A stretch of 64,000 nucleotides of DNA from Octopus vulgaris (lineage: Eukaryota), in assembly GCA_951406725.2 (NCBI GenBank), contig OX597826.1, positions 29,760,001 to 29,824,000 of the forward strand, read 5' to 3'. Position 1 is the first letter of the stretch; each line of letters begins with the position of its first letter. A program made the position numbers and the translations under genes. Positions 13,274-63,190 of this stretch are shown here, one piece after another. Under the pieces are notes generated by a model, which was not told the DNA's origin, searched no databases, and worked only from the letters and a program-made list of their open reading frames with translations.

Positions 13274-13355
13274 AACTTACAGCCGTTTCCGTTGTAAGAT
13301 GTGGTTGATTCATAACTGAGTGCCTGAATCAATACCTTGCACTTTCGTCAGAGCC
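13274..13355 (-). ncRNA. Type I hammerhead ribozyme motif (PLE-type, long stem II)
   Basis: Minus strand: ggct-CTGACGA-[stem II including ttgattca/tgaatcaa]-GAAAC-ggct-GTA-agtt. Confidence 0.6.
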
Positions 13356-13564
13356 TCAAACATGAAGTGCACTTCATGCAGGCATGGGTAATTGCAAGTT
13401 TTACCCCCAAACCTTGCCTGGGCCTACCCCCACCACAACACGCATGTGTAGAAGTCTGGTGGTCAACTTTGACCAATAGATTCCTAATAAATTTCCTAGC
13501 TTCAAGTAAAATTTGAGAAAGATGTTAATCTTTCTAATCCGAAAGAGCTAGAGTTATGAATTCC

Positions 13565-13790
13565 GTTGTCGTTGCTGTTTAGTAGTAGATCAGCTTTAAG
13601 ACTGAACAGTCCTATGATCAAAAGCTCTCCGGCTGTGACAACCCAGTTTTTTTGTTGAGGCATCGTTTATTTAAGGATACTCAAAACGTCCTCTTCTATT
13701 TTAAGATGGTAGGTTGCTATTTGAAGGCGATTTGGCTGCTATGTCTAGCAAGTTTAATGACCACGCAAAGGCTTTTCTCAATGGGTCGAA
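13565..13790 (+). repeat. Old interspersed repeat family C (related copies ~19460-19530, 51510-51700, 52860-53060, 63530-63660)
   Basis: Shared motifs ttgtttag...gatca...atgat.aaa and gatttggctgctat.tctagca. Confidence 0.55.
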
Positions 13791-14134
13791 TGGCTTCGGT
13801 TGTAGAGTAGAACGATGTCTGCATGCGGCTGAAGAGACCCAGCGCATCGAAACAGTAAATTCTTTTGCGATTATTGGGTTTTCTATAAGCTATGTGCTAC
13901 CTCATTTTCACTACACATACATTCATATATATAGAACTGGAGAAAAGAAAGATCTATAGAGAAGTAATCAGAAATGTATAGCTCTTATATCCAGACTAGA
14001 AATTTTCATTTGTTCCTCTTATTATAGATGTACTGTACTATGTTTCTGCAGATTTGTAGAAAGCCAATTGACTCGCATTCTCCAAATGCAGTTGATAAGT
14101 GACACATCGTAAATATAAAATAATAATAATGAAA

Positions 14135-14640
14135 TTATTGTATACAGTGCTCAGGTGCACCACAACTTGTCAGAAAGTGCATATAAAGTACATGCAGTAA
14201 TGTAGAAATGTCTGGAAAGTGAACATGCTTGTGTGTGTATGGAGGGAGAAAATCAAGTGTAGTGTTGGCGAATCTCAGGAAGCATGGAAGTCTTGAAGGA
14301 TGCAGTGCTCCGACAACTAACAACCGATGCCGGCAGTTTGTTCCACGCTTCAGCAACTCTCAGCGTGAAAAAATGTTTCCTGAAGTCATGGGAGCTGTGC
14401 TGTGTTAGATGGGTGGAGTTTGAAGAGGTGCTCAGAGTTATTGCTTGTGCGATGGTTGATAATTTTATGGGTGTCTGCCAAGTCAGCTGCCAGACGTCGG
14501 AGTTTCAATGTGTCCATGCCCAGGGAAGTAAGGCGTTCAGGATATGGCAAATGCCTGATGGAGGGTATTCTTTTGGTTGCACGTCGCTGAACAGCTTCCA
14601 GACGATTGATGTCCTGGGCAAGATAGGGGTTCCATGAAAA
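14135..14640 (-). mobile_element. CR1-type LINE 3' fragment (a family distinct from the two central LINEs)
   Basis: Minus-strand translation: HLPYPERLTSLGMDTLKLRRLAADL..HKII...RKHFFTLRVAEAWNKLPASVV...SFK (CR1 ORF2 C-terminus), followed by an (ATT)n tail. Confidence 0.8.
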
Positions 14641-14906
14641 GCGTTCCAGGGATTCCCTGTTTGATGGTCCTTAATTGAAGGTATGCACACAATTGCATGA
14701 ACATATGGAATACACACATGCACAATCATCAGATATTTCTCTTTCAAAACTTTCTTAGATTTTTTTCTCTTCTAAGCTTTTGTAGCGCCTTGGAATATAT
14801 TCTGATTGGCGATCGAGGATATACACACCCTCGAAAGTAGTCAGCTCTACCGCAACAAAGCATTTCGGAAAAGATTTATGTTTATCAGAATCAGAAGAGA
14901 GCCATA

Positions 14907-15123
14907 CGAGGGGTGTTGAAAAGTTCCTGGCTTTAAAGGTGTCGCGAAAGGCCTGGCTGGAGGCCCAACTTTCCGAGTTCTTTAACAGGGCTTAGAAAAA
15001 CTGAAGGACCGCTGCAATAAGTGTGTGAATCTGAGAGGGGAATACGTTGGATAAAAATCTTAATTAACTGATCCGCCTGTATTTTCTTTTACCCAAATCC
15101 AGGAACTTTACAGCACCCCCTAG
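14907..15123 (+). mobile_element. Mariner-derived MITE
   Basis: TA|cgaggggtgttgaaaagttcctgg ... ccaggaactttacagcaccccctag|TA; interior encodes the mariner C-terminus GLEKLKDRCNKCVNLRGEYV. Confidence 0.85.
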
Positions 15124-15519
15124 TATACGGTTGTTAGAAAGCCTCCAATTAATTGCAGCATAACTAGTCAGAGTAGTTTATGTGGTCCCACCAAACATAG
15201 TTCTCTTATTGAAGGACATTTTTTCAGCCGTGGAACTGGAAATAAAAAAAAAATACCGGATACACAAAAGGTGTAAGAAAGCAGGTAAAGCAGTTGTGAG
15301 AAGTGAAGATTCCGAGGAATTAACATTGAAAGATGTGGCCAAAATCTTCAGAAGTTGTCTGAAAATGTCATTACGATATTATCCAATCCGGATTACCCAC
15401 AATACAAAATATCGAAATATAAGAAGTTACAGGGATATGGAAGGTATATTCACTCTTAACATGAAAGGATGCTGACGGAATTTGGGAGTTAATCAGGTGA
15501 CTTGAGCCGATACCGTTTC

Positions 15520-15559
15520 GTACTTGCTTCAGCATTACATATATTAAAATTGGAACGAT
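15520..15559 (+). pseudogene. U6: U6 snRNA 5' fragment (40 nt)
   Basis: GTACTTGCTTCAGCATTACATATATTAAAATTGGAACGAT matches the conserved U6 5' end; truncated before the ACAGAGA box. Confidence 0.85.
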
Positions 15560-60372: not shown

Positions 60373-60628
60373 ATATATATATATATATAGTCGATATTTA
60401 ACATTATTGGTCTAATGGGTATATGTCGATTAATGTGTTGAAGTGTTGAATTGAGCACTGACACAGTTTGAGCTAGCTAGTGTCATCCACTGTCGGAGTG
60501 TTTCAGTTGGATCAACTTCAGGAATTCCGCAGTGTTAGTAGACATAATAATAATGATAGTAATAATAATAATAATAATAATAGTAATAATAATAATAATA
60601 ATAATAATAATAATAATAATAATAATAA

Positions 60629-60840
60629 TTGCTTAAGTAACGAAAAAATGGATTTGGCATTAATTTAATCTTAATTTTGTACAACGGTCGTTTCGAGCCA
60701 TCCTGCTAATGTCCCTTATGGGTGGGACTTGTTTAAAGGAGTCCCACCCTCAAGGGACAGTATCAGGATGGGTCAAAATGATCGTTGTACAAAATTAAGA
60801 TTAAATTAATGCCAAATCCATTTTTTCGTTACTTAAGCAA
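60629..60840. repeat. ~210-bp near-perfect palindrome flanked by (AAT)n/(ATT)n
   Basis: ttgcttaagtaacg...gggtgggact / agtcccaccc...cgttacttaagcaa. Confidence 0.95.
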
Positions 60841-60861
60841 TTATTATTATTATTATTATTC

Positions 60862-61780
60862 AGTAGTTTTATTTTTTATAGCGTGCTTTCACTTCACTAC
60901 CGAGCGCAGCTCTGTGTGCCTTGGGTATGTGCTGTGATTTGTTGTGATGCTCTGATGGTTATTGTATGGAAAGTGTTCTGCGTAGGATGTGTGCAGTGCC
61001 TAGTAGTGCAATTTTCTGTATGTTATATGTGTTTGTAAGTCCTGGTGTTTTTGTTATGTATTTGTCTGAATATTTTTTTATCATGCCTAATGCACCTACT
61101 ATGATAGGAATTGTTTCTGTTTTCAGATTCCACATTCTAGTTACCTCTATTTCCAGGTCTTTGTATTTTGAGAGTTTCTCCATTTCTTTTAGAGACACGT
61201 TGTCATCTGCCGGTATTGATACATCAATTAGAAAGCATTTTTTTCTTCATGATCTCTGACAACTATATCTGGTCTGTTGGCCTTAATTTCTCTATCTGTG
61301 TGTATCGGCATATCCCAGAGTATGGTTGCTTTCTCGTTTTCTGTGACCTTTTCTGGTGTGTGCTTATACCATCTTTTTTCTGTTGTTATTCCATAATGTT
61401 GGCATAGCTTCCAATGTATGTAGGTTCCAACTCTATCATGTCTGTGAATATATTCCTTCTTAGCCAGGACTGGGCAGCTAGAGATAATATGATTTATTGT
61501 TTCTTGTCCATCTCCACATATTCTGCAGTTACTTGTAATATTTCGTTTCATTACATGTTTTTGGTAATTTCTGGTGGGGAGGCTTTGGTCTTGTGCTGCA
61601 ATTAAAAATCCCTCTGTTTCTGCTTTGAGTCCTGAGCTTCTCAACCATTGCTGGGATTTTTCTTTGTCTATTTCTTTTGCGTTTAGTTTAGTGCAGTATT
61701 TACCGTGAAGGGGCTTTTCTTGCCATCGTTTTATCATGGTTCGTTGCTGTTCTATTTTTAGTTTGGATTTCATTTGACCA
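60862..61780 (-). mobile_element. 5'-truncated R4/Dong-type LINE (CCHC knuckle + restriction-like endonuclease), frameshifted
   Basis: ETEGFLIAAQDQ, CRICGDGQETINHIISSC, RHDRV, LWD..I.TDREIKANRPDIVV, KLSKYKDL, PIIVGALG; 3' end runs into (TAA)n. Confidence 0.9.
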
Positions 61781-62179
61781 TTATATATATATATATTTCA
61801 TAAGACCATTATATATATATATATATATATATATATATATATATATATATATATATATATATATATATATATATATATATGTATATATATATATATACAT
61901 GCATACACTATTGGACACAGGGATATAGACACGAATGCAAACATATTGGCACAGAGAATACTTTACCAAGTTTAATTATTCTTTCATCAAATTATTCATC
62001 AAATTATTCATTCATAAGCAGAGATGTGTAATAAAAAAGGAAATAAAAGCAATCTTCAGATAATGACCCAAGAAATGATAATAATAATAATAATAATAAT
62101 AATGATAATAATAATAATAATAATAATAATAATAATAATAATAATAATAATAAGAAGAAGAAGAAGAAGAAGAACAAGG

Positions 62180-62532
62180 GCTGAAATTTGTGAGGACTAA
62201 TCGATTACTTGATCCAGTGTTTCACTGGTACTTAATTTATCGAAAAGCAAGTCGACCTCGGTAGAATTTGAACTCAAAACGTAGCGATGGGCGAAATACC
62301 TATTTCTTTATTACCCACAAGGGGCTAAACATAGAGGGGACAAACAAGGACAGACATAGGTATTAAGTCGATTACATCGACCCCAGTGCGTAACTGATAC
62401 TTAATTTATCGACCCCGAAAGGATGAAAGGTAAAGTCGACCTCGGCGGAATTTGAACTCACAACGTAACGGCAGACGAAATACTGCTAAGCATTTCGCCC
62501 GACGTGCTAACGTTTCTGCAAGCTCGCCGCCT
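62180..62532 (-). mobile_element. Two adjacent or nested SINE family B copies
   Basis: atttctttattacccacaaggggctaaac...gtcgacctcggcggaatttgaactca...aagctcgccgcctt. Confidence 0.85.
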
Positions 62533-63107
62533 TACTGGGCGAAATACGGATTATCATTCCGTCCAGCAAGCGAACGATTCTGCCAGATCGCCGCCTTGAA
62601 AAAAAGAAAAAACGAAGGAAGAAGTGCAAAAATGACATGAAGAATTATGCAAGAAGGGACTAAATTGAAAGAAAATATAAAAGAATGACAACAAATTTTC
62701 CCGAAATTAATTATTGGAACAAAAACAACAAGCAAGTTATGTGCTGTTTGTATAAAATATTGAAAGAAATAAACAAATGAAAAACTGAAAAATTTACGAA
62801 ATATTTTTTCCGTTCTCACAAAAAAATCATATTTATTAATGTTGATCTTGTTATGCGGCATTGTTGAAATATGTAGGTGTATGATATTTCTACAAATAGA
62901 ATAAATGTGTCTATATAAAGATGTATATATGGAAGACTCATATATAGTACTTTGAGTTTCCTCCCAAGTCCTAAATATGAAGTTATCCGATTGCCAATCG
63001 ATGCACGTGCCAGAATTCATGCACACCCCCACCACACATATACACGTAGACACTCTGAGATGATTCAACAACACAACACCTAATATCCTAAAGGTATATC
63101 TTTTCTA

Positions 63108-63190
63108 CCCTCCTGATGAGATTTTGCCTTATATAATGATCTAATAATTGCTATTTTCATCCTTAGACTTAATTGAAACAGCTGTAAGAG
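63108..63190 (+). ncRNA. Type I hammerhead ribozyme motif (long stem II, weak stem I)
   Basis: ctc-CTGATGA-gatt...aatt-GAAAC-agct-GTA-agag; palindromic stem III ACAGCTGT. Confidence 0.6.

What the first reader, a model, noticed from the sequence alone, without database searches (positions are those of the whole stretch)
13274..63190. At least six independent hammerhead motifs in 64 kb, most with an enlarged stem II
Seen: complete CUGANGA...GAAAC-n-GUH cores with flanking stem I at 13274-13355(-), 18980-19034(-), 42392-42482(-)/43546-43636(+), 60086-60167(+) and 63108-63190(+), plus a variant at 37993-38033. Their flanks are unrelated, so they come from different families. Stem III is short and often palindromic (ACGCGT, ACATATGT, ACAGCTGT, ACCGGT). 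Stem II spans roughly 30-60 nt in five of them. Known: PLE pseudo-LTRs carry minimal type I hammerheads with palindromic stem III thought to act as dimers, usually with a very short stem II. Inference: a lineage-specific long-stem-II class that standard motif descriptors would miss.
Basis: partly seen in the sequence, partly recalled or inferred. Interest (0 to 1): 0.7.

Follow-up and report, generated by a model that had tools for sequence, protein, structure and literature searches.

The report
Long-armed hammerheads in Penelope retroelement ends
Several jumping-gene remnants in this animal DNA carry the sequence of a hammerhead, a likely self-cutting RNA already known from this class of elements; in two abundant families one arm is three to four times longer than is typical in related elements, which hides them from a standard search pattern but likely does not change how they work.

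Summary
The motifs are real: 4 strict type I hammerhead hits against 0 in 200 shuffles, with unrelated flanks. The count is overstated. Of the six listed, two families fold well with long stem II (60 nt at 42392/43546, 53 nt at 60086). One pairs but folds weakly (30 nt, 18978). Two have broken stems (13274, 63108). The 37993 variant is the published U3-A8 core swap with a short stem II. 60086 ends a truncated Hydra-clade Penelope-like element (PLE); 37993 and its missed twin at 31917 sit in the inverted terminal repeats of a Neptune/Nematis-type PLE. The others show PLE-like ends but no coding proof. In 80 Hydra-type loci from other organisms, 38 distinct hammerheads had stem II of 10-30 nt (median 16), so 53-60 nt is an outlier. 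Read variants mostly keep pairing, and stem III alleles favour a palindrome, fitting dimer cleavage. A lineage-specific class is not shown: short-stem relics occur in this window, a published octopus Hydra hammerhead is short, and a spike-moss PLE has about 53 nt. The scan noted long-stem-II PLE hammerheads before, here and in another genome. Cleavage is untested. Verdict: new variant of a known kind.

The parts
60086..60167 (+). Type I hammerhead, intact; stem I 5 bp, stem II 53 nt (rod with internal loop), palindromic stem III, predicted cut after C60162 (GUC)
   Evidence: the hammerhead dimer is the predicted minimum-energy dimer (ddG 0.0), stem II z -2.45; high-copy family
58975..59817 (+). 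C-terminal part (thumb-side segment plus GIY-YIG-type endonuclease without CCHH) of a 5'-truncated Hydra-clade PLE ORF
   Evidence: Hydra profile iE 5.5e-19; diagnostics from PMC8557442 section 11
58896..58980 (-). Inverted, 5'-truncated copy of 60132-60216 (3' half of the hammerhead and the element end), next to a (TA)n run
   Evidence: (96.5% over 85 nt)
60217..60370 (+). Tail present only on the direct copy, ending at (TA)n
   Evidence: (depth falls about threefold; loose ends running into (TA)n at 60222 in X8), 95
42392..42482 (-). Type I hammerhead, intact; stem I 6 bp, stem II 60 nt, predicted cut after A42398 (GUA); sense copy of the element at 42247-43663
43546..43636 (+). Identical hammerhead in the inverted arm; same family as 42392, not independent
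   Evidence: arms 42357-42625 / 43413-43671, 95.5%; ddG 0.9
42247..43663 (-). Non-coding, PLE-like insertion between (TA)n runs: inverted arm, about 790-nt body, hammerhead, 110-nt one-sided tail; no coding remnant found
   Evidence: PLE identity inferred from layout
18978..19036 (-). Type I hammerhead; stem I 6 bp, stem II 30 nt (4-bp closing helix, weak), 6-nt palindromic stem III, predicted cut after A18984
18726..19409 (-). About 680-bp element with inverted arms (18726-18835 / 19292-19409, 86%) between microsatellites, holding the 18978 motif; PLE-type inverted end or MITE, not resolved
13274..13355 (-). Decayed hammerhead: core intact, 55-nt spacer without closing pair, weak stem I; (TA)n 52 nt after the cut site
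63108..63190 (+). Decayed hammerhead: core and palindromic stem III intact, stem I broken, 55-nt spacer unstable; TA-rich run 85 nt after the cut site
37993..38033 (+). U3-A8 core-variant hammerhead, stem II 16 nt, 6-nt palindromic stem III, GUU triplet, near the 3' end of the pseudo-LTR
   Evidence: variant described in PMC4209133
31917..31957 (-).
31876..38074 (+). Neptune/Nematis-type PLE: inverted pLTR 31876-32553, ORF 33654-35930 (758 aa; RT, CX4CxxC linker, GIY-YIG with CCHH), pLTR 37392-38074 (99% to the inverted copy)

Best explanation
These motifs are type I hammerhead sequences left at the 3' ends of several Penelope-like retroelement families; in a parent tandem transcript two copies likely pair through the palindromic stem III and cut after GUH, and stem II has likely grown to 53-60 nt in some families because nothing limits its length. 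Steps. (1) Shown: two motifs lie at the 3' end of PLE coding sequence (Hydra-type at 60086, Neptune/Nematis-type at 37993), with an inverted truncated copy at the 5' end and (TA)n neighbours. (2) Inferred from layout: the non-coding element 42247-43663, and probably the others, are truncated or non-autonomous PLE ends. (3) Predicted: the 60086 and 43546 motifs fold as hammerhead dimers, the long stem II forming a simple rod away from the core. (4) Inferred: the third stem III pair cannot form within one strand (it would close a 2-nt loop), so its retention points to an intermolecular stem III. (5) Inferred: these minimal PLE hammerheads lack the loop I-loop II contact that fixes stem II length in canonical hammerheads, so the rod can lengthen while only pairing is kept. 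(6) Inferred: the copies in this window are mostly inert relics. They have no sense partner nearby, their inverted arms would pair with each other in a read-through RNA, and two or three have lost stem pairs. Cleavage itself is untested.
For: Enrichment 4 against 0 in 200 shuffles. PLE coding context and inverted truncated arms with one-sided tails at (TA)n, as described in PMC8557442 (passages). Hammerhead dimer within 0.0 and 0.9 kcal/mol of the minimum-energy dimer, against a median of 3.2 for 39 control hammerheads. Both families are high-copy: 3125, 1972 and 450 pieces laid in 3 of 4 runs for 59420-60375; 418, 346, 196 and 57 pieces in 4 of 4 runs for 43520-43665. In one search all 7 variable places lie outside the core, stem I and the first 9 pairs of stem II, and two stem III alleles each turn a G.U into a Watson-Crick pair (A-U or G-C). 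Across both families 6 of 7 listed changes at paired sites keep pairing, against about 0.36 expected per site (p about 0.01). No loop II-flank pseudoknot found. Published PLE hammerheads have palindromic stem III, work as dimers and show low activity (PMC4209133 results; review PMC6765202 passages).
Against: No coding remnant was found beside 13274, 18978, 42392/43546 or 63108, so their PLE origin rests on layout. The 18978 element could be a MITE. No two-sided compensatory change was seen within stem II, and one change breaks a stem II pair (43568, 36% in X4). One search showed only 40 of 129 variant rows, so its clean core is not proof. Variants are single-site, not haplotypes, and come from related copies, so the p-value is optimistic. 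The families are young and vary little overall. In the Anolis PLE, hammerhead cleavage needed protein and was dispensable for insertion in vitro (PMC11167929 passages), so a cleavage role is not assured. The stem II z-scores are modest (-2.45, -1.77).
Confidence: 0.75

Rival explanations
1. The long stem II is a selected functional module: its internal loop or tip docks on stem I or binds the element's RT/EN protein, and so speeds up or gates cleavage.
For: Two unrelated families reach 53-60 nt with a similar predicted shape (basal helix with a U irregularity after 5-6 pairs, internal loop, UUU tip). Changes in the distal rod mostly keep pairing (43582, 43605, 60134, 60104). The Anolis PLE hammerhead is protein-assisted (PMC11167929).
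Against: No shared sequence between the long stems. No Watson-Crick match between unpaired stem II segments and 30-nt flanks above shuffles (10 comparisons). Loop positions vary (43586, 43597, 60128, 60138). 37 of 38 relatives manage with 25 nt or less.
Confidence: 0.13
2. The motifs are kept as a structured 3'-end signal for RT binding or priming, and cleavage is vestigial or incidental.
For: They lie 37-263 nt before the element end at (TA)n. Catalytic mutants of the Anolis PLE hammerhead did not affect insertion in vitro, and no RNA-seq ends were found at the cut site (PMC11167929). In vitro rates of PLE hammerheads are low (PMC4209133).
Against: The catalytic core is kept across 43 of 80 Hydra-type loci, on the sense strand only. 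The U3-A8 swap at 37993 preserves a catalytic tertiary pair. Both are expected if chemistry, not only shape, is selected.
Confidence: 0.1
3. The matches are chance products of a relaxed pattern in AT-rich DNA.
For: Allowing 80 nt for stem II widens the search; the relaxed setting gives a shuffle mean of 0.38, so one weak candidate could be spurious.
Against: 0 of 200 shuffles reach the observed count at any setting with hits. Position at PLE ends, palindromic stem III in all six, and pairing-preserving variants.
Confidence: 0.02

Closest known systems
Hammerheads of Hydra-clade PLEs (Craig et al. 2021, PMC8557442; section 11 and File S2 read)
   Same: Type I motif in the 3' UTR after a C-terminal endonuclease lacking CCHH; stem I 3-7 bp; palindromic stem III of 8-10 nt; (TA)n targets; inverted truncated 5' copy.
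   Different: File S2 Hydra motifs have stem II of at most about 26 nt (Hydra-1_oBim about 23) and my 38 relatives 10-30 nt; 60086 has 53 nt. Its ORF also has an Asn-rich segment where Hydra proteins have the CxCX5C linker.
Minimal and palindromic-helix-III hammerheads of metazoan PLE pseudo-LTRs, including the U3-A8 core variant (Cervera and De la Pena 2014, PMC4209133; parts 1-2 of 4 read and supplement passages)
   Same: Location in PLE terminal repeats, pairs on opposite strands 100-700 bp apart, many unrelated families per genome, palindromic helix III, U3-A8 swap, dimer model.
   Different: That paper reports helix II of 7-8 bp, and its descriptor caps stem II at 7 bp plus a 10-nt loop.
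Long-loop-II hammerheads of spike-moss PLE-X1 elements (PMC8557442 File S2)
   Same: PLE hammerheads with stem II of about 53 nt (PLE-X1_sMoe) and 37-48 nt (PLE-X1_sTam).
   Different: Plant, endonuclease-less elements; marked 'deviates from canonical structure'; no sequence relation tested.
Animal non-LTR retrozymes (PMC7229834 passages; bioRxiv 10.64898/2026.07.22.740005 parts 1-2 of 5)
   Same: Non-coding repeats with a type I hammerhead, proposed to be non-autonomous PLE derivatives; may describe 42247-43663 and 18726-19409.
   Different: Defined as head-to-tail tandem units with a hammerhead in each unit; the copies here are solo or inverted.
Naiad 'HHR_half_core' cases (PMC8557442 methods and File S1)
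   Same: Core halves noted 35-50 nt apart, including in Naiad_Ovul and Naiad_Esco.
   Different: None of six window motif strings matched a cephalopod Naiad or Hydra consensus in the supplement, and by eye the Naiad_Ovul 3' end has the halves in reversed order; no Naiad link was found here.

Membership tests
Type I hammerhead ribozyme | Core CUGANGA, GAAA, NUH in type I order | tested here: met
   5 of 6 listed motifs; 37993 has the U3-A8 form
Type I hammerhead ribozyme | Stems I, II and III close the three-way junction | tested here: inconclusive
   Met for 43546/42392 and 60086; weak for 18978 and 37993; not met for 13274 (no stem II closing pair) and 63108 (no stem I)
Type I hammerhead ribozyme | Core conserved and pairing kept across copies | tested here: inconclusive
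Type I hammerhead ribozyme | Self-cleavage 3' of NUH | not testable with these tools
   Needs in vitro assay or RNA end mapping
Canonical (tertiary-stabilised) hammerhead | Loop I-loop II contact or pseudoknot | tested here: inconclusive
   No Watson-Crick pseudoknot above shuffles; non-canonical contacts cannot be seen this way
Hydra-clade PLE (element 58896-60370) | C-terminal GIY-YIG endonuclease without CCHH, with CxxC before the conserved E | tested here: met
   criteria
Hydra-clade PLE (element 58896-60370) | CxCX5C linker upstream of the endonuclease | tested here: not met
   Window ORF and its two closest relatives (P0121, P0123) have an Asn-rich segment instead; more distant relatives have the linker. 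Filed as Hydra-like.
Hydra-clade PLE (element 58896-60370) | RWK and DKT motifs in the RT region | not testable with these tools
   The copy is 5'-truncated; full-length relatives P0222 and P0168 show RWR, DKT
Neptune/Nematis-type PLE (31876-38074) | RT plus C-terminal GIY-YIG with CX2-5CxxC linker and CCHH | tested here: met
   RVT_1; C646/C651/C654 and C690/C693/H712/H729 invariant in 31 sequences; Neptune versus Nematis not resolved, no tree built
EN+ PLE insertion structure | Inverted 5'-truncated copy at the 5' end, one-sided tail, microsatellite target | tested here: met
   58896-60370 and 42247-43663 fully; 31876-38074 has inverted repeats; 18726-19409 has inverted arms; 13274 and 63108 show only the (TA)n neighbour
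Non-LTR retrozyme | Tandem head-to-tail units each with a hammerhead | tested here: not met
   No direct repeat of any motif in the window; other genomic copies not examined
Naiad PLE | N-terminal endonuclease, C-terminal RT next to the 3' UTR | tested here: inconclusive
   No Naiad protein was available as a query; motif strings absent from cephalopod Naiad consensi

The most novel reading that the evidence does not exclude
Several unrelated PLE and retrozyme families in this lineage have converged on a 50-60-nt stem II whose internal loop is a new peripheral domain, docking on stem I or binding the element's own protein to switch cleavage on. This would be an abundant hammerhead subtype, invisible to short-loop descriptors, that explains why PLE hammerheads look slow in a tube.
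Probability: 0.13. Interest if true: 0.62.

Novelty: new variant of a known kind. Interest (0 to 1): 0.3.

Why it matters
Practically, hammerhead counts made with the short-loop descriptor miss whole high-copy families, so surveys should allow stem II up to about 80 nt. The two intact families are also ready test substrates for an open question: why PLE hammerheads are slow in vitro, and whether they need a dimer or a protein. A removable 30-40-nt extension and natural stem III alleles give clean controls. If the extension is neutral, as I think likely, the finding only widens a known size range.

Tried and rejected
No whole genome is held, so no genome-wide count or family alignment was possible. 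Rfam: 0 matches at gathering level in the window; no hammerhead among the top 150 of 293 E-value matches shown or in two short stretches. It also gave no hammerhead match in 20 control loci with short-stem motifs, so I reject 'Rfam misses them because of stem II'. The word-index protein search with the endonuclease fragment found nothing; phmmer did. First locus scan with the single Neptune protein: nothing. Viral contigs: nothing for either alignment. No RNA holder listed; raw-read run X22 laid 0 reads and is no test; contigs cannot show RNA ends. Naiad link: six motif strings gave 4 unrelated hits in the Craig supplement; a reversed-order core search gave one match at 55629(+), without a control, not pursued. 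Coding remnants beside four motifs: none by tblastn with 120 Neptune-type and 150 Hydra-type proteins or by three profiles. Loop II-flank pseudoknot: none. Look-alike earlier findings by sequence: none. Paper searches for a long stem II in type I or PLE hammerheads: 0 papers, 1 paper (Cervera 2014); octopus or cephalopod with hammerhead returned only Craig 2021 as relevant by listing. Lunse et al. 2017 and Arkhipova et al. 2017 could not be read, and both may describe longer stems. File 1 of the Cervera supplement and the Perreault 2011 descriptors were not seen.

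
Full report
Setting. The window is eukaryotic, 32% GC and full of (TA)n-type microsatellites and retroelement debris. It looks cephalopod-like; that is my inference, echoed by earlier scan notes, not a tool result. No whole genome is held.

Observation. All coordinates check out. A strict type I descriptor (stem I >=4 bp, stem II closed by >=3 bp and up to 80 nt, stem III 6-8 nt) finds 18978(-), 42392(-), 43546(+) and 60086(+): 4 hits against 0 in each of 200 local dinucleotide shuffles. 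With stem II capped at 25 nt it finds none. The core-only pattern gives 7 against a mean of 0.15. The flanks of 7 regions share no blastn hit at E<=0.05, so the families are unrelated. Quality differs. Folded as dimers, the hammerhead form is within 0.0 (60086) and 0.9 (43546) kcal/mol of the best dimer, against a median of 3.2 for 39 control hammerheads. It is 14.9, 16.9 and 12.0 away for 18978, 13274 and 63108, and 8.2 for 37993. The 18978 figure is overstated, because the script used the free fold of stem II; with closing pairs forced that stem is still only -0.2 kcal/mol. 63108 has no stem I in register and 13274 no closing pair for stem II. So two long-stem families are intact, one is marginal and two are decayed. 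The 37993 variant has U3-A8 in place of C3-G8, a swap reported in PLE hammerheads (PMC4209133, results read), with a 16-nt stem II. The window also holds decayed motifs with 27-, 13- and 12-nt stem II, which weakens 'most are enlarged'.

What carries them. 37993 lies near the 3' end of a 684-nt repeat whose 99% identical inverted copy (31876-32553, hammerhead at 31917) flanks a 758-aa ORF with RT, a CX4CxxC linker and a CCHH GIY-YIG domain: a Neptune/Nematis-type PLE. 60086 follows a truncated ORF whose endonuclease has 1604 relatives at E<=0.001. Full-length ones show RWR, DKT, a CxC linker and no CCHH, the Hydra-clade criteria of Craig et al. 2021 (PMC8557442 section 11); a further search reached a protein from Apostichopus japonicus, a known Hydra host. 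The window copy lacks the CxCX5C linker, so I call it Hydra-like. It starts with an inverted copy of its own 3' end (58896-58980) and has a 154-nt one-sided tail, between (TA)n runs. That layout is described for PLE insertions (PMC8557442 passages). 42247-43663 has the same layout without coding sequence, so its two hammerheads are one family. 18978 sits in a 680-bp element with inverted arms, either a PLE-type end or a MITE. 13274 and 63108 have only a nearby TA-rich run. No coding remnant was found for these four.

Is the long stem II unusual? I fetched the best 80 of 504 Hydra-type loci from metagenome contigs and scanned their 3' flanks allowing stem II up to 100 nt. 43 of 80 had a hammerhead, none on the opposite strand, with a shuffled mean of 0.05; 8 of the 80 had under 100 nt of flank. 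The 38 distinct motifs had stem II of 10-30 nt, median 16, one at 28 nt or more and none at 40 or more; one near-miss (L078) had about 36 nt. All had a largely palindromic stem III. Three of 7 Neptune-type loci had motifs of 11-18 nt. Craig's File S2 lists Hydra motifs up to about 26 nt, with octopus Hydra-1_oBim at about 23, but also spike-moss PLE-X1 motifs of about 53 and 37-48 nt marked as deviating. So 53 and 60 nt are outliers among animal relatives, 30 nt is at the top of the range, and long stems have a plant precedent. The sample centres on relatives of P0169, not on the window's own subfamily. The published minimal descriptor allows at most 7 bp plus a 10-nt loop (PMC4209133 supplement) and would miss all three. 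Rfam's silence is uninformative, since it also missed 20 short-stem control loci.

Variation among copies. Twenty of 24 listed runs, from 9 studies and 4 organism labels, hold part of 58900-63300. Laid at 80% likeness, 59420-60375 drew 3125, 1972 and 450 contig pieces in three runs and 0 in a raw-read run, with depth peaking over the hammerhead and element end. Of 129 variant rows 40 were shown; the five inside the motif are two at unpaired sites, two that keep a pair and one that turns a U.U mismatch into G.U. For 43520-43665 all 8 rows (7 places, share >=5%) were shown. None lies in the core, stem I or the first 9 pairs of stem II. Two are unpaired, two keep stem II pairs, one breaks a pair (43568), and two change the third stem III pair from G.U to A-U or to G-C. 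In all, 6 of 7 paired-site changes keep pairing against about 0.36 expected per site, p about 0.01. That value is optimistic: copies are related, alleles are unphased and one table is incomplete. No two-sided change was seen in stem II.

Mechanism. The likely model is the known one. A tandem PLE transcript carries two sense hammerheads that pair through the palindromic stem III, swap stem I strands and cut after GUH, freeing a unit-length RNA (PMC4209133 results and discussion; review PMC6765202 passages; Lunse et al. 2017 seen only as cited there). The third stem III pair would close a 2-nt loop in a monomer, so keeping it points to the dimer (inference). In canonical hammerheads loop II docks on stem I (PMC3088659 passages), which limits stem II length. 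These motifs show no such pseudoknot, so I infer the rod is free to lengthen as long as it stays paired. The genomic copies here are probably inert: no sense partner is in the window and inverted arms would pair with each other. Against a simple cleavage role, the Anolis PLE hammerhead needed protein and was dispensable for insertion in vitro (PMC11167929 passages). The rival that the extension is a selected docking or protein-binding module rests on a loose shape resemblance between two families and has no sequence support.

Novelty. PLE hammerheads, palindromic stem III, opposite-strand pairs, many families per genome and U3-A8 are all published. A 53-60-nt stem II in animal PLE hammerheads did not appear in my searches, but two key papers were unreadable and Craig et al. 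noted core halves 35-50 nt apart in eight Naiads. The scan itself reported long-stem-II PLE hammerheads in another genome (e1-9545524) and in this one (e1-9590685, e1-8667016); these are unchecked notes, not support. Verdict: new variant of a known kind, interest 0.3.

Noticed in passing
window 33654-35930 (+): The Neptune/Nematis-type PLE has an uninterrupted 758-aa ORF and 99% identical inverted terminal repeats, so the insertion is young; about 1.4 kb of mixed microsatellite lies between its stop codon and the downstream repeat.
   Followed up: partly
window 58981-59420 (+): The Hydra-like ORF and its closest relatives (P0121, P0123) replace the CxCX5C linker with an Asn-rich segment, possibly a distinct subfamily.
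   Followed up: partly
window 60337-60372 (+): The tail of the Hydra-like element ends in a second CUGACGA followed by a hairpin and then (TA)n, with no GAAA half; unexplained.
   Followed up: no
window 6779(+), 11147(-), 13829(+), 55686(+), 63445(+); 3' halves at 7018, 7260, 7312(-), 7435: More decayed hammerhead relics, mostly with short stem II; the GAAAC-n-GUH half occurs 43 times against 12.7 in shuffles.
   Followed up: partly
window 43551, loose ends: In three runs some contigs carry a different sequence 5' of the core, suggesting a sister family that shares the core and stem II but has another stem I context.
   Followed up: no
window 60630-60839: A 210-bp near-perfect palindrome between (AAT)n runs, MITE-like.
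   Followed up: no
window 25940-29212 (-) and 38900-40291 (-): Two related endonuclease-RT LINE copies (70% identical over 1.46 kb), one with a 1090-aa open frame; also zf-RVT LINE ends at 53057-53911(+) and 61228-61797(-), and helicase-like fragments at 2118-2982(-) that by recall resemble Helitron PIF1.
   Followed up: no
PMC8557442 supplement, Naiad_Ovul and Naiad_Obim 3' ends: The GAAAC half lies upstream of CUGAUGA, i.e. reversed order, in line with earlier scan notes on split-core hammerheads in Naiads; seen by eye only.
   Followed up: no
L001-L007: Animal-type PLE sequences with hammerheads sit in contigs of bacterial MAGs, probably host contamination of those bins.
   Followed up: no
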